Below the pieces are notes generated by a model. It had not been told where the DNA came from. It saw nothing but the letters and a program-made list of their open reading frames with translations, and did not search any database. Of a stretch of 64,000 bases of DNA, positions 16,811 through 56,600 are shown one piece after another. The stretch spans positions 800,001 through 864,000 of the forward strand of contig CM000434.1 in the NCBI GenBank assembly GCA_000165345.1, written 5' to 3'. Made by a program: the position numbers and the translations under genes. Every line of letters begins with the position of its first letter. Positions within the stretch are counted from its first letter, which is position 1.

Positions 16811-16833
16811 GCATGCATGCATGCATGCATGCA
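16811..16833. repeat. (GCAT)6 / (CATG)n palindromic microsatellite in a convergent 3' spacer
   Basis: GCATGCATGCATGCATGCATGCA lies between the RBMX2 stop (16570) and the stop of gene 16865..17759 (16865). It iterates the GCATGCA core that is otherwise found in promoters. Confidence 0.7.
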
Positions 16834-16864
16834 AAAATTAGGCCAAATATTAATTAAATAATAC

Positions 16865-17759
16865 CTACATTCTTTTATAATTCCGGTTTCCATGTAAATC
16901 TCTAAGATGAAAGTCAAGAGGAAGTAATGATTTACCAAGCTTTAGTGTATTGAATTTATCTTCAAAAAGTTCTTTATATTTACTCCTTTTTAAAGAATTA
17001 ATAATAACAGTATTTCCAGATTCAAGATATTGTATAAATAAACCCATAGAAGGGGTAGTAAATATTAAACTATGTAAATCTGAAGCATCACTTCTTAGAA
17101 TACCAAATTTAATTAATAAATTCAATAGAAAATCCCCACTGAAGTTGGTTTGATGACTTTGACAAATTTTATATTGACTTTTCCATTGAATACATATCAA
17201 AGATAAATAATCCAAAAGATGCTTATTATTTATACTAATTGTCTTATAATTTTGAAAAATGTTTTCTTTAATTAAGTTTAAAATATTTTGTAATAAAATG
17301 TTATTATTTTCATTATTAAAAAGACATTCCAAAAAACATCCATTTAGTCGATTTTGACATTCTAAATTTGAATACTTTTCTTGAATTCTTTGTTTTAACA
17401 CTCTTAATATATCACTCTTTAAACTATAACCTATAGATGACGTAATATTTTTATATGATAAAGATCTTGGTACCTTTAATTTTCTTAATTCACCATCTTT
17501 AACAAGCATTTCCAAATCTTATTAATTCAAATATTAATCATTATATAAATATTATTTAAATTCTATTTATTTTTAACTTACCTTGAATTGGTAATCTATT
17601 TCCATCATTTCCTAATATTTGATGTTCTAATACTATTGGAGGGTCAATAATGCCAATACAATCTTTTCTTAATGAAAAGAATATATTTAATGTTTCTGAA
17701 TATTCATAATTTTCTAAGAATTCTATGATTTTCTCGTCTTTATCATTTTCTTCCATCAT
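16865..17759 (-). CDS. Hypothetical protein. Two exons: complement(join(16865..17517,17582..17759)), with a 64-nt intron.
   Basis: The upstream ORF (ATG 17759) ends ...GNRLPIQ|G immediately before a GTAAGT donor (rc of 17576-17581). The downstream ORF starts at TTG and is preceded by D and an AG acceptor (rc of 17518-17519). Phase 1 is preserved, giving ...PIQ-D-LEMLVKDGELRK. No recognised domain. Confidence 0.55.
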
Positions 17760-18172: not shown

Positions 18173-18189
18173 TTTGGCGCGCGCGCCAA
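18173..18189. promoter_or_regulatory. Palindromic E2F-like TTTGGCGCGCGCGCCAA in a bidirectional promoter
   Basis: It lies between divergent genes starting at 17759(-) and 18446(+). Confidence 0.5.
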
Positions 18190-18445
18190 CGACGGTACCA
18201 AATGAATGTAAAATGCATGTAAATAGATTTATACATAATAATAATAATAAAAAAATCAAATAAATAAGGAACAAAATTTAAGTAAGGTCTTAGTAATTAA
18301 TATCATCAAACATATAAATTAGTTTTCAAGATTTTGAATTATTTTCCTTAAAATTATTTGTTACACAGATAAATCTGGAATTGTAAACAAGTATAAATAC
18401 AACAATTGAATTTAAATTATATTAATTAATCACATCTTAAAAAAA

Positions 18446-19045
18446 ATGGAAGGTTCTCGTAATTACCAGACAAGTGATTCTTTAAACTTCTTGAATAATA
18501 CAATTAACTCAGCATCAACTTCTCCAATGTTATCTTTAAGATATCACCCTTTTGAAAATATTTGTGGATTCACAAACCCATATTACGGAGAAAATAATGG
18601 ACTTACAGAACTAGAACTTCAAAAGCATTCAAACCATATGAGATCAGTTACAGATGCCATGCATTACTTCTTTAAATTACATCCTTCTATTATCACAAAT
18701 TCTCCCTCTTCACCAAGAAGTCCCGTAATTGAATCACAGTCTCCTCTTGTTAGTCCAGCAGTCTCTTCTAAGAAAAACAGGAAAGAAGTAGAAAAATTGG
18801 ATGTTGATCATCCAAATTTATGCACTACTCAATGTAGGGTTATCCATCCCAATCTTGTCCACAGTGTCAACCAAAGGTGGCAATTAAGAGTTCATCTATT
18901 AAACCAGAACTCTGGAGTCTTAAAAGCCGCTGATCTATCTCACCCTTATGTTAATGAGATCATTAATGCAAACGCTCCTATCACTCCAAGGATGACTAGT
19001 AGACATACCAGTAGGCATATTAGTAGAAAAACTACTGAAAATTGA
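18446..19045 (+). CDS. Hypothetical Ser/Pro-rich protein, 199 aa
   Basis: The ATG at 18446 was verified and the ORF is clean. It contains SP/TP-rich segments (SPSSPRSPVIESQSPLVSP). Confidence 0.45.
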   Translation: MEGSRNYQTSDSLNFLNNTINSASTSPMLSLRYHPFENICGFTNPYYGENNGLTELELQKHSNHMRSVTDAMHYFFKLHPSIITNSPSSPRSPVIESQSPLVSPAVSSKKNRKEVEKLDVDHPNLCTTQCRVIHPNLVHSVNQRWQLRVHLLNQNSGVLKAADLSHPYVNEIINANAPITPRMTSRHTSRHISRKTTEN

Positions 19046-19185
19046 ATACTATAACAAGTAACTCTAGGTAGCAATGTAGGTGTAATAAGAATAATAATAA
19101 TATATACTTTACCATTACATAATAATATTACGAGGAAAAGAACGACCAAGTAAAAGAAATTATTCTATCCTGACTGACTATGACT

Positions 19186-19300
19186 TCTCCTCGCTTTCTC
19201 CTTCTCCTTTCTATCGCTCTCCACTCTCCACTCTCCACTCTCCACTCTCCCCCATCAATATTCCTTTTACCTACAACTTTTAATTCCCATCTTTTCCCCA
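19186..19300. repeat. Polypyrimidine / (CTCTCCA)n tract (GAGA-like on the minus strand)
   Basis: CTCCTCGCTTTCTCCTTCTCCTTTCTATCGCTCTCCACTCTCCACTCTCCACTCTCCCCC is followed by (TA)n and then TGCATGCAAATTTGGCGCCAAAA at 19492-19514. Confidence 0.7.
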
Positions 19301-19696
19301 CACACACTCTATCTCCATATATATATATAAATATATATATATATATCCACCATAATGTCACACCTATCAAGATTCAATTTCTAATTTCAGTCCTATTTTC
19401 TCATTCCCTCTCACACTCTCCTTTACCTTCACTATTTCTATTTTTCCCTATCTATTTTCTCTTTCCCTCCCCCCTCTAATCAAAGTATTCTTGCATGCAA
19501 ATTTGGCGCCAAAATAGAAATGACAAAGGGGCTTAAAAGAAAAGCTTTAAATCTCTTCTTACTTATAAGAAAAGATTCAAGAGAGGCCAAAAAAAAAAGA
19601 AAAGAAAAAAAACATGTAAGTTACCCAAAAATAGAGACAAAAATTGGAACTGGGACTCTTTTCCAGTCCAATCATAATGTGCTATCCATCCCCATA

Positions 19697-23896
<4,200 letters not shown>

Positions 23897-24027: not shown

Positions 24028-24041
24028 CTTGGCGCCATTTT
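24028..24041. promoter_or_regulatory. E2F-like CTTGGCGCCATTTT about 135 bp upstream of the exportin-like gene
   Basis: GGCGCC core in an AT-rich spacer. Confidence 0.45.
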
Positions 24042-31647: not shown

Positions 31648-32144
31648 TAATAGCATCCATTAATTATTCATCATCATATTAAAGTTATTTTAAATAAAAC
31701 GATTAACTTCAAATCTATCAATTATTGAACAAAGATTTCAATCTGAAATCTTCTAAATTAGTTCTTAATTGATTATTATTATCATTATTATTATTATTAT
31801 ATAAATAGTCTATTTTAATTATTTTACTACTTATTCTCAGTAATTGTATTTTACTGAGAGTCCACAGAATTTACTGCATTTTTTTTTTAATTACATTAAT
31901 ACAATATAACCAAGTCAATTAAGCTATGCACTATTCCTAATTGCAAGGAAGAAAATTATTAAGCTTACTTAATTGATGTTTTGTATGAATTGTCTATGAA
32001 TTCATAAATTTACGGAGAATTATATTGTCCAAAAAAGTGGAATATGAAGAACTACAGCAAAGGAAAATTTGATTTGGAAGTTTTATCAGGAAAAAAACAC
32101 TGAGGGGGATGGCTTTCCCGAAAATAAATAGGCGCCATAAAGAC

Positions 32145-32153
32145 AAAAAAAAA
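32145..32153 (-). terminator. Pol III oligo(T) terminator for tRNA-Gln
   Basis: A9 on the plus strand is T9 on the minus strand, 10 nt 3' of the tRNA acceptor end. Confidence 0.6.
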
Positions 32154-32163
32154 GTGGAAATAC

Positions 32164-32234
32164 AGGAGCTACTGGGAATCGAACCCAGGCTACCGGAATC
32201 AAAATCCGGGGTCCTACCGCTAGACTATAGCTCC
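32164..32234 (-). tRNA. tRNA-Gln (anticodon UUG)
   Basis: Reverse complement: GGAGCTATAGTCTAGCGGTAGGACCCCGGATTTTGATTCCGGTAGCCTGGGTTCGATTCCCAGTAGCTCC. It folds as a cloverleaf with a 7-bp acceptor stem GGAGCTA/TAGCTCC, D-stem GTCT/GGAC, anticodon stem CCGGA/TCCGG and loop TTTTGAT (anticodon TTG). The T-arm is CTGGG-TTCGATT-CCCAG (GGTTCGATTCC box B). A T9 run lies 10 nt downstream on the same strand. Confidence 0.85.
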
Positions 32235-32487
32235 TTACGCCGCTATGGTGATTTTATAAAGAGTTAATCTATACAAATCAAAATATTAAGCTTAATAAAA
32301 CTCAGATAAATTTTTGTTCAAGAAGGAAATTAACAAGGCATTCTATTTAAAGATTAATAAATAGATTATTCAATTAAATATTTTGGAAAATAAACGAAGT
32401 TTAAAAAAATTTTTGATGAACTATTATGGAAGAAAATGATCAATGTTAAGTTTTGAGAGATAAAAGTATTAAGAAATAAATAAATAT

Positions 32488-50372: not shown

Positions 50373-50543
50373 ACTTCTAATTCATTCTTTCTTTTTTTGA
50401 AGATTTCTTTTAATTTAATAACTTTCTATCTAATTACAAACAAAATCATAAATTTAATGTTAAAATTTATATGCCTAAAACTAGTGGCTCATGTATGTAT
50501 ATTATATTTATATATTTTTTATCCCACCCCGGTACCTGGTTAA

Positions 50544-50595
50544 GTGCAGCACGTGCATGCGCATGTTTGCGCGGGGATTGGGCGGGAAAATTTGC
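50544..50595. promoter_or_regulatory. GC-rich island GTGCAGCACGTGCATGCGCATGTTTGCGCGGGGATTGGGCGGGAAAATTTGC between two convergent 3' ends
   Basis: It contains CACGTG, GCATGCGCATG and an E2F-like GGGCGGGAAAA, yet it lies between the PDI-like stop (50372) and the giant gene's stop (50601), where no promoter is expected. Confidence 0.4.
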
Positions 50596-50600
50596 TCTTC

Positions 50601-53600
50601 TTAAGTTGTAAACTTGAAAAAGGTTAATATTGCAAGTGGTGTAAAAATATAAAGACAAAACCCTGACAATTTTTCTGTTATATCAAATCCACAAATCTTA
50701 AGCAAAGGTGGTGTTGAGTTAATTACAAGTAGAACCTTCTCTATCACAATATAAATCCCTGCTCCTGGTGGAGTTCTATGTAAAATATTTTGCAACCAAG
50801 AATGAGTTCTTACTGATGTTCTGTTTATTTGATAAAGTAGCCTTATTACATATGAAGAAAAAATAAACATAACTATTCCCATTGTTAGAAAAATTGTCTC
50901 ACAATTTGAATAAGTATTGATCATATTATTTTCTGAAGATGATGGAATTGTTCCTTGATAAGATAAATATGAAGTTGCATATTGAGGAATTGTTAACATA
51001 AATGAAAGAGCTGAAGTTTTAATGTTTGATATACTTGCTAGATTTGAATATGTTAATGTTGAATGTGAAATTACTGGATTATTATCATTGTTATTCATAC
51101 CAGAACGTATTGATCTCATCAAATTTATATTATTTATAAAATTGTTGGTACCTTCTCCTGGAATATTAGTATAATAATGATCATTTAAATCTATCATTGA
51201 TGATATATCATTATATTTATTCATATTATAATTATCCTCATTATTTGAGTTTAAAATATAATCAATATTTGAAATTGAATCCATAAATTGATTTTTATTT
51301 GTTGAAAAAGATCCTGTCTTAAAAAAGTTATTCATAAAATGATCCCCTATTGATCTTGAATTTAACTCATTTAACAAATTTGTACTAATTCCTCCACCTA
51401 TAATATTTGGAGATGTAGTTAATATTCTTGAAATATCTTTATCAAAAGAACCTCTTACAATATTTGTTGAACCAGAAGCTGATAATCCATTCAAATTTTG
51501 ATTTGAACTTGGATTCTTACTCAACATTGTAGAAGATGAAAGATCTGAAACTCGATTATTATATATTCTATTCTTTTTGTTATATATTGCAACAAGCATA
51601 ATTTTCCCAATACAAAAGAAAATTAAAGTATTTATAGATACAGAAGCATTTAAGAAAGATGTCCAAAGCTTTGTATTCTTATAAAGGATATGTTGTATTG
51701 CACTTCTCCAATAACTAACAATTTGAATAAATTCTTGAACATTTGAATATTTAAATTGGGTTGGAATATGTTGAACTAATACAATACAAAGTCTTTTTCT
51801 TTGTTTCACAAAGAATAATAAAATAATCAAACCTTTCAAAATCTCAAAAATTAAGTTGGAAATCCAATATGTAAATATACATTCAATAATATAAACTGTT
51901 ATTGGAGATTTATTATAAAGGAAATATAAAGTTGAATCCCTTATTAAATATGAATTACTTTTAAATAATGTTATTGATATATTTGATGACATTGCCACAA
52001 TACAACTTATTATCTTGCAAGTAATAACAACATTAAAGTATTCATATGGAGTATTATAACTCACTTCATCCACTAATCGATATAATGGTTTATGAATCTG
52101 ATTATTAGTTACAACATTTCCAATATTTGTTCTAATATTATCACAACTTAAATTATCTTCTGCACTTGAAATAATGTTCCTAATTTTTCTTAATCTAATA
52201 GATCTTTTAACTTGGTTATTACTTTTTATGAAATTATTAAAGTTATCATTAATACTTGGAATTTTTTTCTGCCGTTTAGAATTAATATAAATACTTGTTT
52301 TACTTGATATGTTAGTATCACTTTGATATATTTGTTGTGTATTTTTTATTCTATTACAATAATTAGATAAAACTGACTTAAAACGTTTGTTTGCTGTGTT
52401 ACTTCGGGTTATTCTAATAGCTGGACCACTCAAAGTTGAACAAAATTTATCATTTACTAACCCAAAAGATGAAGATTTTGAAGAATTAATGTCAAAAGCA
52501 ATATTAATATCATTTGATTCAATTTTTGAATTATAATTTTGAATCCAAGGTGTTCTCAAATATTTATCTCCTGAGCTAGTATCATTAGAAATGGTTGAAG
52601 TAATTGATAATAAATCAGGCAAACAAATATATTCTCCTCCTGTTGAAGATTTTTTTACTTTAACTGAACTTTTCTTCATTACTTTCACTTTATTTACTTT
52701 AGAATGATTTGGATTTAATTTTATCCTATTGATATATTTATCATCATCATTTTTTTTTGTTATAGATTCTAAATCTGAACCAAGTGAATTTGTATCTTCA
52801 TTTGATTCACTCGAACTCAAATTCTCATCATCCGCAAAGTTATTATTTTCAAAATATTTTGAAGATGATGATGAATATGAGGTAAAACGAGAATAAGATC
52901 TCGATCCAAAAGTTGTCACATTTGAAGAAGAAACTCCCAATAAATTAAACCTTGCAGTATTTGGTGAAGAAAAATTAGATGAAGAATCTGGTTGAGAAGT
53001 TACTGAACAACCATTTACTTCATTTGAATAAGAATGACTGGCCTTTGTGTTAATGTAGTAATTACTAGTTGAAAAACTTGATCCTGATTGACTATTATTT
53101 AATTCTGATATAAAACTCCCGCCAAATCTATGATGCACTTGTGCATGTAACTCCGGTATTAAATCCATATGAGACTTATTTCTAGAACTTAATTTTTGAC
53201 TTGATAATTTTTGTGGAATCAACATATTTGGTGAAATTTCAATTTGATTGTCTAAGATTGGAACTTCACTATTAATTTTATTATTAGAATTCTTGTCAAT
53301 ATCACTTTTGTCGCAATCAAAGTCATAGTCATACTCATTATTATTATTATGACTGAAATAGTTGTTTTTAATTAAAGTACTTGAATTCATTGCACAGTTT
53401 AAAAGGTTTGAATATATATTTCTGATATTTTTTCTGTTTTCTACAGATTTCTTATAATAGTAATAATTATATAAGTAATATTCTTTAGAAAATCCACAAA
53501 AGTATTTGTTACAATAGTTGGAAACAAATTCATGTGTGTAATATATTCTAACACTTGAACAGAGTGTGGCTGTGATAATGACTCCAATTAAGAACCATAT

Positions 53601-56600
53601 ATAGTCATATTCACTAATTAGGAAAAGTATCGTGAATAAGTAAATTAATGAAATAATTTGTATGAAGAAGAATAAGTATTTGATAATAGACTGAAGATTT
53701 GTATTTTTTTGAGAGTTTTTTTGCTTAAAATAATTCATTGGAGCATTCAACAAATTACTCTTTGTAGTTTTAATAGTATTCATAGACTTTTTATCCTTAA
53801 TATTTTCTTTTAAAGAGTTATCCTTATAAATATACCAAGGTGATGTGAAAATTAAAGACAATGCCAACAATACTGAATCAATGACTTTTCCTGATGCAGA
53901 TACTGGGAAAATTTCTGCAAAATCTCTTAATCTAAATACAGAATATGGCAATGTATTTAAAAAAGCTTTTCTCGTATATTTGAGAATATTTTTTGTTAAT
54001 AACTGAATTGATGATTTTGACTTAAAATTTGAATTTTGGCTTTCATTAGTTACACCCGATATTCCTCTTTTTTTTTCTTTTTTATTTTGTCTGATTAACC
54101 CACTTTTTGTTTTTTTATTTGAATTTATTTTCTTTTTAATCTTTTCCTTACTCCAATCGTTTATCATGTTTTTGATATAAAAGACTTTGAGATATGATAT
54201 AATTGCCCAAAGTAATATGTAAATTATAGATGTCAATAGAATTGCAGAAGAAACTCGAATAGCTGATGGAATTATATGATTATGAGGACTTGTATTTAAT
54301 AAAGTAATGAATTTTGCTTTTTTAGCCAATAGTTCTTCAAACGTAGTATATGAACTTGATTTATCACAGATTGGATGTTTATTCATCATTCCATAAAGTT
54401 TACTTCTACTTATTAAGGGACCTAAATCAGTAACATTAGCTTTAGCTGGTATTTCTGGTATGTAACCAAGATGAATTTTTTGATAATCACTATTTAGACT
54501 TGGAATATAACATTCAGTTTTTTCACCAATACATTGAGAATCTATCAGCAATGTACTGGATGGATCAAATTCATGTTCATGATCTTGACTAAAAATCATG
54601 GGTACCCATAAGACCTCTTTTATTTGCATAATATTACAAATGTTTGGTAGCTCTATTAAGCAGTTACCCAAATATGTATTTATTCCCATTTTTTTATCCA
54701 TCTTTTTATATAATGCATCAATTCCAGTTTCATGTGTAGGTGTTGTTTCCATATTATCTTGACCAAAATAGTCAAAGTCGTCCAATATTCCTTGTATCTT
54801 CTCATTTAAATTGTTGCTTTGAGTATTTTCAATAGCATCATTAATATTTAGATTCTCTAATCTGTTTTTAAGAGTATGAAGTCCTTGAATCTTTGAAAAA
54901 TCCACGTTCTTTCCTAAGAAGAGTTCAGCTTCATTATTTCTTGGATAATTACAGGTGGAGTTCTGTAAAATTTTGATAATATGTTCAAAACTACTGGAAC
55001 GTACAAATTTGGTCATTTCTGGAGACAATAATTGTTTTACTAGATTGATAGCTTCTCCTAAAGAATCAGTTTTTCGATATTCTGTTTTAGTCTTTGATAA
55101 ATTAACTAATTCATCATTTTTGTCAGTATAATTTTGGAAAAGTTTAGTCTTTTGAGAAAAAATGGTGTCAAAGTTACTAAAAATAGATTCATATTCTCCG
55201 CTAGTATCGTGTTGAGAAATATGATCATCTTCTTCAAAATAACCTCTTCTCATTTCACTTCTCACAAAATTCATTTGTTCTTCAAGTTCATTCTGCTCGT
55301 CCAGCTCATTCTGTTTTTCCACTTCCTTATTGTTTTCAGTAAAATCAAATTGATACTGCAAAAAGAAATCGCGACTAAATTCTGGATTAGAGTAAATACT
55401 ACCTTCAACGGAACTACTGCTCTTTACTTTCTCATTAAAAGTAGTATTTTCTAGCTTTACTGAAACATTTACATCTCTTCCATTTGAATCAGAAGCTGTC
55501 AAACTTTCATTAATATACTGGAAGATTTTATTGTGTTCAATACTATTAATTTTAGCCAAATTATCTAGCTCAGTCTCATCTGAATCAGTCTCTGAATTAG
55601 AATCAATTTCACGAATTTCTCCTTCAATACCATTCGAAAGAATAATAATTCTAACCAAAAGTGTAACGGGAATAGCCATCAAATCATCTAAATTTGGAAA
55701 TTCTGGAGGTAATGAACCCAATAATCTGGAAGCAACTTGGATACTCACTTCTGATGAGTAATCAAGACTTGAAAGTACTTCTGATAGTGTCTGGACTCTT
55801 CCTAAAAGAATATTTCGAATAATATCATCCTTTCCTAAAATTGTTGCAGTAATAAGAGCATGCTGTAATGCATGAATACACCAAAAGCTTTGTAACATTG
55901 CCTCCCTTAATATTGACTGTAATACCACTTTTGACGTATAATTTTTATTTAATAAAAGTAGTAATGATAAGATCGAAATTGAATTATCATACTCTGAAGT
56001 ACCTATAATAGGTATCGATCGTGGTGTAGGAATTGAGTACCTTTTTAAAGGCTTACAAAAACATCTCACGACAAATGAACTGACGTGGAAGTCTATGGCT
56101 GGTGATGAGAGATATTCAACAATTTTATGTTCACCTGTAATATCGTTTCCTGAGCTAACCGCAAGTTCGTACCAAAGAGTTGTATTGGTTTTTGGATTTT
56201 GAAACATAAGCATTTCCTCGAGAATTTGGAACTTAGGCAACTTATTGTTATTGTTTCCAGAAAATTTGAACTCATTAATTTGATCAAACTCTTCAAACAT
56301 TTTAAAAGATTTTTTACTGCTAATAGTTGGTTTATATAAAAGTGAATTTTCTTTATTAAGTTCTCTGCTCTCTTTTAACATCAATTCCTCCTGATAATTG
56401 ATTTTGTAAATAAGGTGGCCAATAGGAAGGTTCCCATATATATCAGGTTCATGAAGTTCGCAAAGTTCAAAATCCAATACCCCAGTATTAGTCTGAAACT
56501 TGTAGAAACTAACCAAAATCCTAATCAGATCTTCATCTCCAAGATGAGCCATCCACCAAAGCAAGTTCCGGCCTTCATTATCCCTAACAATGCATATATC

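What the first reader, a model, noticed from the sequence alone, without database searches (positions are those of the whole stretch)
19046..19696. Promoter-like island between two convergent 3' ends: candidate antisense or non-coding RNA locus
The 650 bp between the stop of gene 18446..19045(+) and the stop of the exportin-like gene (19697, -) should be pure 3' UTR. Instead it holds a 115-bp polypyrimidine (CTCTCCA)n tract (GAGA-like on the minus strand), a (TA)n block, and TGCATGCAAATTTGGCGCCAAAA (19492-19514). Those are the GCATGCA and E2F-like elements that elsewhere in the window mark 5' regions. The only ORFs here are low-complexity frame artefacts (19180..19479, Pro/Leu/Ser-rich; 19520..19759, overlapping the exportin 3' end). 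A transcript starting here and reading into the exportin 3' end would be antisense to it.
Basis: partly seen in the sequence, partly recalled or inferred. Interest (0 to 1): 0.55.

Follow-up and report, generated by a model that had tools for sequence, protein, structure and literature searches.

The report
Conserved promoter-like site between convergent genes
In Cryptosporidium parvum chromosome 6, the gap between two genes that end facing each other holds a short, evolutionarily conserved pair of transcription-factor sites that most likely starts a non-coding antisense RNA, which is a common and already described arrangement in this parasite.

Summary
The window is Cryptosporidium parvum chromosome 6. 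The flanking genes are the orthologues of cgd6_3510 (18446..19045 +) and cgd6_3520 (19697..23896 -, weakly importin-beta-like).

The motif pair TGCATGCA-N2-TTTGGCGCCAAA (19492-19513) is real. It consists of two perfect palindromes, ApiAP2_1 and E2F/DP. It is the only such composite in the 64 kb (0 of 100 shuffles).

The pair is also the best-conserved 20-mer of the intergenic region in the two most distant alignable species (95% against a 45% mean). Everything around it is unstable microsatellite sequence. It is absent from more distant species, whose intergenic regions are shorter.

The "(CTCTCCA)n tract" is only 34 bp long. It lies inside a 300-bp C-rich, G-depleted zone and contains no GAGA motif.

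No conserved ORF, Rfam family or stable RNA fold is present.

The most likely reading is a clade-specific promoter at the 3' ends of the two genes, driving non-coding transcription. This matches the class described by Li et al. 2021: antisense lncRNAs that start at 3' ends, with E2F/AP2 motifs upstream.

No transcript evidence could be obtained. The direction of transcription is undetermined. No lncRNA in that catalogue starts within 100 bp of the site.

E2F cores are as dense in this window's convergent gaps as in its tandem (same-strand) gaps, so the finding is ordinary.

The parts
18446..19045 (+). Left flanking gene, CDS of a conserved hypothetical protein (orthologue numbering 6g3510, i.e. 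cgd6_3510)
   Evidence: Exact match to EAK89971.1/CAD98391.1/QOY41236.1. Orthologues reach C. andersoni at 60% identity. No Pfam domain.
19046..19195 (+). Conserved 3'-UTR-like block of the left gene. Its invariant core is 19059-19083 (TAACTCTAGGTAGCAATGTAGGTGT).
   Evidence: 80-92% identity to C. parvum across five species in 20-nt windows.
19180..19480 (.). C-rich, G-depleted polypyrimidine zone on the + strand, built from unstable microsatellites
   Evidence: 76% pyrimidine, 36% C, 2% G. It is the only non-coding tract of this kind in the window. It is the least conserved part of the gap.
19217..19250 (.). (CTCTCCA) x 4.9 tandem repeat
   Evidence: TRF score 68, 100% matches. One C. parvum isolate has two more copies, and copy number differs among C. 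hominis isolates.
19317..19346 (.). (AT)15 microsatellite
   Evidence: TRF. Length is polymorphic within and between species.
19492..19499 (.). TGCATGCA, a perfect palindrome matching the ApiAP2_1 motif
   Evidence: Sequence. Motif definition in PMC12246861 and PMC7840661. CATGCAA is invariant in 6 species.
19502..19513 (.). TTTGGCGCCAAA, a perfect 12-nt palindrome matching the E2F/DP motif
   Evidence: Only copy in the window, even allowing 1 mismatch. TTT and GCGCCAA are invariant in 6 species. The variants GGGCGCC and GCGCGCC keep the [C/G]GCGC[C/G] core.
19515..19696 (.). Stretch between the motif pair and the stop of the right gene, purine/A-rich on the + strand. It is either the 3' UTR of the right gene (- strand), the start of a + strand non-coding RNA, or both.
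   Evidence: 62% purine, 46% A. Large indels between species. No Rfam hit. Folding z-scores -1.3 and -1.8.
19609..19619 (.). Small conserved island AAAACATGTAA, function unknown
   Evidence: AAAACA..TAA is invariant in 6 species. The 20-nt window at 19606 scores 0.83.
19697..23896 (-). Right flanking gene, a 1399-aa protein (orthologue numbering 6g3520, i.e. cgd6_3520), only weakly importin-beta-like
   Evidence: Exact match to EAK89970.1/QOY41237.1. Pfam IBN_N E=0.0045, 17.4 bits, below the 21-bit cut-off.

Best explanation
The 22-bp composite TGCATGCA-AA-TTTGGCGCCAAA (19492-19513) is a functional binding site for an ApiAP2 factor and for E2F/DP. It arose in the C. parvum-to-C. ubiquitum clade inside an expanded gap between two convergent genes. 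It most likely acts as a promoter at the genes' 3' ends for non-coding transcription.

The favoured direction is the + strand. That would start an RNA some tens of bases downstream of the E2F site, which enters the 3' end of the importin-beta-like gene (cgd6_3520) as an antisense lncRNA. Because both sites are palindromes, it may fire in both directions.

Shown: the motifs, their non-random occurrence, their selective conservation, and the lack of coding potential.

Inferred: factor binding, transcription initiation, direction, and any regulatory effect on the sense gene. Both flanking genes also carry E2F sites in their own promoters (18174-18190 and 24029-24036), so co-expression of sense and antisense is expected.
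For: 1. The composite is unique in the window and absent from 100 shuffles. The 12-nt E2F palindrome is unique even with 1 mismatch.
2. GGCGCC is confined to intergenic DNA: 10 of 10 sites, although about 68% of the window is CDS. E2F-core density is 0.05/kb in CDS against 1.1-2.1/kb in intergenic classes.
3. Phylogenetic footprint: in a 6-species alignment the window 19494-19513 is the most conserved 20-mer of the gap for chipmunk genotype I plus C. ubiquitum (95% against a mean of 45%). Substitutions keep the E2F core, and the spacing stays at 6-8 nt.
4. The pair is invariant among 4 C. parvum and 3 C. hominis assemblies, while the flanking repeats vary.
5. Positive control: the true promoter of cgd6_3510 shows the same kind of footprint.
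6. The composite stays 120-184 nt from the stop of cgd6_3520 in all six species. Its distance to the other stop ranges from 365 to 525 nt.
7. Li et al. 2021 report that antisense lncRNA starts track the end of the sense CDS. They also report E2F/DP1 and ApiAP2_1 as the top two upstream motifs, co-occurring at 17 lncRNAs (PMC7840661). Their table S3 shows adjacent E2F+AP2 pairs with 12-13 nt offsets upstream of several lncRNAs, e.g. Cp_lnc_303, 304, 130, 153 and 375.
8. No coding alternative: the ORFs are broken by non-triplet indels, have no Pfam hit, and there is no Rfam hit.
Against: - No transcript, TSS or chromatin evidence was accessible.
- In Li 2021 table S3 (read in full) no lncRNA has TTGGCGCCAAA next to ATTTGCATGCA within 100 bp upstream.
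- K-mers from 18910-19945 are absent from the stored part of their lncRNA FASTA. By my estimate roughly four fifths of the file is stored. Their pipeline also removes or merges transcripts lying downstream of a same-strand gene, which applies to any transcript born in a convergent gap.
- Direction cannot be read from palindromes.
- The element is absent from C. canis, C. felis, C. xiaoi, C. ryanae and C. andersoni, so it is not essential to the genus.
- ATAC-seq in sporozoites found E2F but not AP2 motifs in open chromatin (bioRxiv 10.1101/2025.01.17.633476).
Confidence: 0.5

Rival explanations
1. The same promoter fires mainly or also on the - strand. That would give a GA-rich non-coding RNA that crosses the CT tract and runs antisense into the 3' UTR and CDS of cgd6_3510.
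For: - Both motifs are perfect palindromes.
- The best match to the Li 2021 AP2 matrix (ATTTGCATGCA) is on the - strand. The order E2F, then AP2, then TSS seen for Cp_lnc_303 corresponds to the - strand here.
- The - strand of 19180-19480 is purine-rich, like the sense strands of coding regions in this window.
- Li et al. and the ATAC-seq study both describe many bidirectional promoters.
Against: - The composite keeps a near-constant distance to the cgd6_3520 stop but not to the cgd6_3510 stop.
- The opposite motif order also occurs upstream of lncRNAs, e.g. Cp_lnc_153.
- The CT zone is the least conserved part of the gap, and felis and canis have a CT-rich tract without the motif pair.
Confidence: 0.2
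2. The composite binds E2F/DP and an ApiAP2 factor but starts no transcript of its own. It would act as a 3' regulatory or boundary element, for example a nucleosome-free region that helps termination between the converging genes, or a distal site that modulates one of them.
For: - Conservation shows selection on the site but not what the site does.
- No lncRNA in the 2021 catalogue starts within 100 bp.
- The sequence on either side of the site is poorly conserved.
Against: - No such role is described for these motifs in Cryptosporidium in the papers read. There they mark promoters.
- 3'-end antisense starts carrying these motifs are common.
Confidence: 0.15
3. Nothing functional is present. 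The gap is just two 3' UTRs plus microsatellite expansion, and the motif pair is a neutral relic or a chance match.
For: - The gap is dominated by unstable repeats.
- The element is missing in five more distant species with shorter gaps.
- The six species that carry it are fairly closely related.
Against: - 0 of 100 shuffles give the composite.
- It is the conservation peak of the gap: 95% against a 45% mean in the two most distant alignable species. The substitutions preserve the consensus.
Confidence: 0.08
4. An unannotated small protein-coding gene lies in the gap, for example the ORF 19180..19479. That ORF was annotated in 2003 as CAD98392.1, and UniProt labels it 'Secreted protein'.
For: - The ORF exists and was once annotated.
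- A promoter-like element lies nearby.
Against: - The ORF lies upstream of the motif pair on the same strand.
- It is made of CT microsatellites whose 7-nt unit varies in copy number among isolates. It was dropped from all later annotations, is a singleton cluster, and has no Pfam hit.
- The ORF 19520..19759 is broken by 2-, 5- and 12-nt indels in C. hominis and by a 61-column gap in C. meleagridis.
Confidence: 0.02

Closest known systems
C. parvum antisense lncRNAs with upstream E2F/DP1 and ApiAP2_1 motifs (Li, Baptista, Sateriale, Striepen, Kissinger 2021, PMC7840661)
   Same: - Same organism.
- Same two palindromic motifs, placed just beyond the 3' end of a sense CDS.
- Adjacent E2F+AP2 pairs occur upstream of several catalogued lncRNAs.
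- Non-coding downstream sequence.
- Those authors also invoke bidirectional promoters.
   Different: - No transcript has been shown here.
- The locus is not among lncRNAs with these motifs within 100 bp upstream.
- 309 of 363 catalogued antisense genes lie head-to-head with their upstream mRNA gene, which the authors explain by bidirectional promoters. This site lies between two 3' ends and has no mRNA partner.
Canonical E2F/DP promoter sites of Cryptosporidium protein-coding genes (Oberstaller et al. 2013, as summarised in PMC12246861; ATAC-seq peaks in bioRxiv 10.1101/2025.01.17.633476)
   Same: - Meets the consensus [A/T][C/G]GCGC[G/C][A/T].
- Confined to intergenic DNA.
- Conserved across species, like the E2F site in the cgd6_3510 promoter.
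   Different: - There is no protein-coding gene downstream in either direction.
- The site is younger than the neighbouring genuine promoter site, which is conserved out to C. canis and C. felis.
Antisense transcription from 3' nucleosome-free regions and bidirectional promoters in other compact genomes (Plasmodium falciparum antisense RNAs and Giardia bidirectional promoters as cited in PMC7840661; yeast 3'-end cryptic and stable unannotated transcripts, from my own knowledge)
   Same: - Initiation at gene 3' ends.
- Little sequence constraint on the RNA body.
- Possible transcriptional interference or co-regulation with the sense gene.
   Different: Here a specific, conserved pair of factor sites defines the putative start region, rather than generic promoter bidirectionality or an AT-rich nucleosome-free region.

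Membership tests
E2F/DP binding motif (Cryptosporidium) | Sequence 5'-[A/T][C/G]GCGC[G/C][A/T]-3' (PMC12246861), or matrix TTSSCGCCWAA (PMC7840661 table S3) | tested here: met
   TTTGGCGCCAAA at 19502-19513 contains TGGCGCCA, and reads TTGGCGCCAAA on both strands.
E2F/DP binding motif (Cryptosporidium) | Bound by E2F/DP protein in vivo or in vitro | not testable with these tools
   Needs ChIP, CUT&RUN or a gel-shift assay.
ApiAP2_1 motif | Sequence 5'-TGCATGCA-3' (BGCATGCAH) | tested here: met
   TGCATGCA at 19492-19499. CATGCAA is invariant in 6 species.
GAGA motif (Oberstaller 2013) | Sequence 5'-GAGAGAGA-3' on either strand | tested here: not met
   No GAGAGA or TCTCTC hexamer in 19000-19750. 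The tract is (CTCTCCA)n and related CT-rich repeats.
C. parvum antisense lncRNA (Li et al. 2021 class) | A transcript over 200 nt on the strand opposite an mRNA, detected in stranded RNA-seq in more than one sample | not testable with these tools
   No read-level expression data are reachable. The Logan contigs L016-L020 end at repeats and give no strand information, and L016 is colinear with the genome across the Stk19-like gene.
C. parvum antisense lncRNA (Li et al. 2021 class) | Listed in the published catalogue of 396 lncRNAs | tested here: not met
   No entry in table S3 has this composite within 100 bp upstream. K-mers from 18910-19945 are not in the stored part of the FASTA, which is truncated.
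C. parvum antisense lncRNA (Li et al. 2021 class) | Low coding potential | tested here: met
   ORFs are not conserved and are broken by non-triplet indels. No Pfam hit.
C. parvum antisense lncRNA (Li et al. 2021 class) | Start site close to the 3' end of the sense CDS, with an E2F/AP2 motif within 100 bp upstream | tested here: inconclusive
   The motif pair lies 184 nt beyond the cgd6_3520 stop (120-184 nt in six species), which is compatible. The TSS itself is unknown.
Structured non-coding RNA (any Rfam family) | Match to a covariance model, or unusually stable or conserved structure | tested here: not met
   No Rfam match up to E=1 in 18900-19900. Folding z-scores are -1.3 and -1.8. The hairpins are not conserved beyond the closest species.

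The most novel reading that the evidence does not exclude
The composite is a recently evolved, E2F-controlled element placed between two convergent genes that themselves both have E2F promoters. It either makes a cell-cycle-coupled antisense RNA that tunes a nuclear-transport receptor, or acts without a stable transcript as a boundary or termination element between colliding polymerases. The second role has not been described for E2F/AP2 sites in apicomplexans.
Probability: 0.1. Interest if true: 0.55.

Novelty: new member of a known kind. Interest (0 to 1): 0.3.

Why it matters
If a transcript is confirmed, this would be one more antisense or intergenic lncRNA locus in C. parvum. It has some useful properties:
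- a compact 22-bp composite of two defined factor sites;
- a datable evolutionary origin (present from C. parvum to C. ubiquitum, absent in C. canis and beyond);
- no shared protein-coding partner.

That would make it a clean test case for whether E2F/AP2 sites alone are enough to start transcription in Cryptosporidium.

It also points to a blind spot. Short-read lncRNA pipelines merge or discard transcripts that arise in convergent gaps, because such transcripts lie downstream of a same-strand gene.

Otherwise the finding fits what is already known about pervasive 3'-end antisense transcription in this genome.

Tried and rejected
- GenBank tag CPATCC_002909 looked as if it mapped to CryptoDB CPATCC_0029090, which has an antisense lncRNA, Cp_lnc_109. 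The Cp_lnc_109 sequence is not in the window, so the two numbering schemes differ and this lead is void.
- I searched the lncRNA FASTA of Li 2021 for twelve 20-26-mers from 18910-19945 on both strands. There were no hits, but the stored file is truncated.
- I read table S3 of that paper in full. No entry carries this composite.
- No supplementary files are held for the T2T annotation paper or the small-RNA paper. No paper mentions cgd6_3510, cgd6_3520 or the cpbgf_60035xx identifiers.
- Logan contigs carrying cgd6_3510 (L016-L020) were examined as possible transcript evidence. All end at the CTCTCCA or AT repeats, so their 3' ends look like assembly breaks. L016 is colinear with the genome across the Stk19-like gene, with no large gaps. 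They are uninformative. Their run accessions appear in no paper.
- Rfam scans at gathering threshold and at E up to 1, and a tRNA scan, found nothing in the region.
- RNA folding of 19515-19700 on both strands gave unremarkable z-scores.
- A small protein gene was rejected. CAD98392.1 is a legacy call inside a microsatellite.
- Purine skew was tried as an indicator of direction and rejected. Gene 5' flanks average 56% purine and 3' flanks 48% on the sense strand, so the skew expected from a promoter and the skew expected from two 3' UTRs point the same way.
- The bacterial promoter/terminator scanner was not used because the organism is a eukaryote.

Full report
**Identity of the window.**
The two ORFs that flank the finding match Cryptosporidium parvum proteins exactly. 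18446..19045(+) is EAK89971.1/CAD98391.1/QOY41236.1. 19697..23896(-) is EAK89970.1/CAD98393.1/QOY41237.1. Orthologue locus tags (CHM_6g3510, CPHLJ_6g3520) place them at cgd6_3510 and cgd6_3520 on chromosome 6. The window is 21-36% G+C per kb, mostly under 33%. The right-hand protein is only weakly importin-beta-like: Pfam IBN_N has E=0.0045 and 17.4 bits, below the 21-bit cut-off. "Exportin-like" is therefore tentative. The left gene is a genuine conserved gene, with orthologues down to C. andersoni at 60% identity.

**Check of the observation.**
- The sequence TGCATGCAAATTTGGCGCCAAAA lies at 19492-19514.
- (AT)15 lies at 19317-19346.
- The (CTCTCCA) array has only 4.9 copies, 34 bp, at 19217-19250.
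It sits within a 300-bp zone (19180-19480) that is 76% pyrimidine, 36% C and only 2% G.
- This is the only non-coding tract of that kind in the window.
- It contains no GAGAGA or TCTCTC hexamer, so it does not meet the published GAGA motif, GAGAGAGA (PMC12246861).
- TGCATGCA and TTTGGCGCCAAA are both perfect palindromes.
- The composite GCATGC-N(0-30)-GGCGCC occurs once in the window and in none of 100 dinucleotide-preserving shuffles.

**Context within the window.**
I used an approximate gene map built from long ORFs and orthologue gene calls.
- All 10 GGCGCC sites are intergenic, although about 68% of the window is coding. Eight of them lie in gaps that contain a gene start.
- The 651-bp gap is the longest tRNA-free convergent gap. 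The others are 65-348 bp.
- Promoter motifs in convergent gaps are not rare here. E2F-core density is 1.19/kb in convergent gaps, 1.08/kb in tandem gaps, 2.11/kb in divergent gaps and 0.05/kb in CDS.
- Three of the eight convergent gaps carry an E2F core.
- A fourth 3' end carries a (GCAT)n array of TGCATGCA motifs.

The finding is therefore typical of the genome rather than exceptional.

**Comparative evidence.**
Orthologous loci were fetched for C. hominis (3 assemblies), C. tyzzeri, C. meleagridis, chipmunk genotype I, C. ubiquitum, C. canis, C. felis, C. xiaoi, C. ryanae and C. andersoni. The convergent arrangement is conserved in all of them.

| Group | Gap length |
|---|---|
| C. parvum to C. 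ubiquitum | 511-713 bp |
| The five more distant species | 124-411 bp |

The composite is present in every member of the first group:
- TGCATGCAAGTTTGGCGCCAAAA in C. hominis and C. tyzzeri;
- TGCATGCAAGTTTGGGCGCCAA in C. meleagridis;
- TGCATGCAAATTTGCGCGCCAAA in chipmunk genotype I;
- ACATGCAATTTTTGGGCGCCAAAA in C. ubiquitum.

It is absent from the second group.

In a 6-species alignment the invariant columns cluster in three islands: 19059-19083, 19492-19512 and 19609-19619. For the two most distant alignable species, the 20-nt window starting at 19494 is the best conserved of the whole gap, at 95% against a mean of 45%. The substitutions that do occur keep the [C/G]GCGC[C/G] core, and the spacing between the two cores stays at 6-8 nt.

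Among four C. parvum assemblies the only differences in the gap are two extra CTCTCCA copies and one extra AT unit in one isolate. C. hominis isolates differ in CCCCTT, CTCTCCA and AT copy numbers. The composite is invariant in all of them.

As a positive control, the true promoter of cgd6_3510 (TTTGGCGCGCGCGCCAA at 18174-18190, followed by TGCATGTAAATAGAT) shows the same type of footprint. It is conserved more deeply, out to C. canis and C. felis.

A short contig from an unidentified Cryptosporidium species (L021) has TGCATGCAAGCATGCA about 285 nt beyond the orthologous stop. It has no GGCGCC before the contig ends.

**Coding and structured-RNA alternatives.**
- ORF 19180..19479 was annotated in the 2003 chromosome 6 record as CAD98392.1. 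UniProt labels it "Secreted protein". It is absent from the gene calls of the other assemblies examined, forms a singleton cluster, and lies in microsatellites whose 7-nt unit varies between isolates.
- ORF 19520..19759 is broken by 2-, 5- and 12-nt indels in C. hominis and by a 61-column gap in C. meleagridis.
- Neither ORF has a Pfam match.
- No Rfam family matches up to E=1, and there is no tRNA here.
- Folding of 19515-19700 gives z-scores of -1.3 and -1.8.

**Comparison with what is known.**
Li et al. 2021 (PMC7840661) described 396 C. parvum lncRNAs, of which 363 are antisense.
- Their start sites track the end of the sense CDS.
- Their top two upstream motifs are E2F/DP1 and ApiAP2_1. 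Both are palindromic and co-occur upstream of 17 lncRNAs.
- Their table S3 shows adjacent E2F and AP2 hits offset by 12-13 nt upstream of several lncRNAs, including Cp_lnc_303, 304, 130, 153 and 375. At this locus the offset is 10 nt.

A later study found 984 ATAC-seq peaks in sporozoites. [quoted passage not shown] The present site fits this class.

It is not in the 2021 catalogue as far as can be checked:
- No S3 entry has TTGGCGCCAAA adjacent to ATTTGCATGCA.
- Twelve k-mers from 18910-19945 are absent from the stored, truncated FASTA.

That pipeline discarded transcripts overlapping a same-strand mRNA, and also read-through candidates. Any transcript born in a convergent gap lies downstream of a same-strand gene, so the catalogue is partly blind to this situation. 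An apparent link to Cp_lnc_109 through locus-tag numbering proved false.

**Mechanism and direction.**
The best-supported reading is a clade-specific promoter at the 3' ends of the genes, formed by an ApiAP2 site and an E2F/DP site.

Direction is not given by the palindromes. Two indirect points favour the + strand, which would be antisense to cgd6_3520:
- The composite keeps a distance of 120-184 nt from that gene's stop in all six species. Its distance to the other stop ranges from 365 to 525 nt.
- Catalogued antisense starts lie close to the sense CDS end.

A - strand, GA-rich transcript, or firing in both directions, remains plausible. The CT tract and the (AT)n block are not demonstrably promoter parts. 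They are the least conserved segments, and C. felis and C. canis have a CT-rich tract but lack the motif pair. Both flanking genes have E2F sites in their own promoters (18174-18190; 24029-24036, about 135 nt upstream of the cgd6_3520 ATG). Any transcript from the gap would therefore probably be co-expressed with them.

**Limits.**
No read-level RNA, TSS or chromatin data were reachable. The Logan contigs that carry cgd6_3510 end at the repeats and give no strand information. Transcription itself is therefore inferred, not shown.

**Verdict.**
The core observation is real and non-random, and the site is under selection. Interest is low to moderate.

Noticed in passing
window 16811-16834: A (GCAT)n array gives five overlapping TGCATGCA motifs just 3' of the long ORF of the Stk19-like gene (16865..17515 -). 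It lies either in that gene's last intron or in its 3' UTR, depending on the gene model. A TGCATGCA-containing element at this spot is kept in C. hominis, C. tyzzeri, C. meleagridis, chipmunk genotype I, C. ubiquitum and C. canis. This may be a second promoter at a gene's 3' end.
   Followed up: partly
window 50553-50592: The convergent gap 50373-50600 holds GTGCATGCGCATGTTTGCGCGGGGATTGGGCGGGAAAA. This is an AP2-like plus E2F-like cluster only 10-45 nt beyond the stop of the 2330-aa gene 50601..57593(-). It is a stronger candidate for an antisense promoter than the finding itself.
   Followed up: no
window 32125-32140: AGGCGCCA lies 32 nt 3' of tRNA-Gln (32163-32235, -), inside the convergent gap 31648-32487. 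Its role is unknown.
   Followed up: no
window 19046-19195 (core 19059-19083): The first 150 nt after the cgd6_3510 stop are 80-92% conserved across six species. The core TAACTCTAGGTAGCAATGTAGGTGT is nearly invariant and far more conserved than the rest of the gap. It is likely a 3' UTR regulatory or processing element.
   Followed up: partly
window 18174-18227: The cgd6_3510 promoter carries TTTGGCGCGCGCGCCAA followed by TGCATGTAAATAGAT. Both are conserved out to C. canis and C. felis, and partly in C. xiaoi and C. ryanae. This served as a positive control for footprinting.
   Followed up: yes
window 19180-19479: The legacy protein record CAD98392.1 (UniProt A0A7G2HK41, 'Secreted protein') is a spurious ORF made of CT microsatellites.
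   Followed up: yes
window 19609-19619: AAAACATGTAA is invariant (AAAACA..TAA) in six species. It lies about 80 nt beyond the cgd6_3520 stop and about 100 nt from the E2F site in C. parvum, and closer to the E2F site in C. meleagridis. It could be a poly(A)-site element, a degenerate AP2 site or a start-site element.
   Followed up: no
L021 1062-1082: An unidentified Cryptosporidium species (Logan SRR31861040; its protein is 78% identical to cgd6_3510) has TGCATGCAAGCATGCA about 285 nt beyond the orthologous stop, followed by an A-rich stretch and (AT)n. There is no GGCGCC before the contig ends.
   Followed up: partly
window 20618-20957 and 22700-22900 (inside cgd6_3520): The importin-beta-like protein contains long poly-Asn tracts. 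Its length differs between assemblies: 1398 or 1399 aa in C. parvum, 1412 or 1416 in C. hominis, and 1215-1396 in other species.
   Followed up: no
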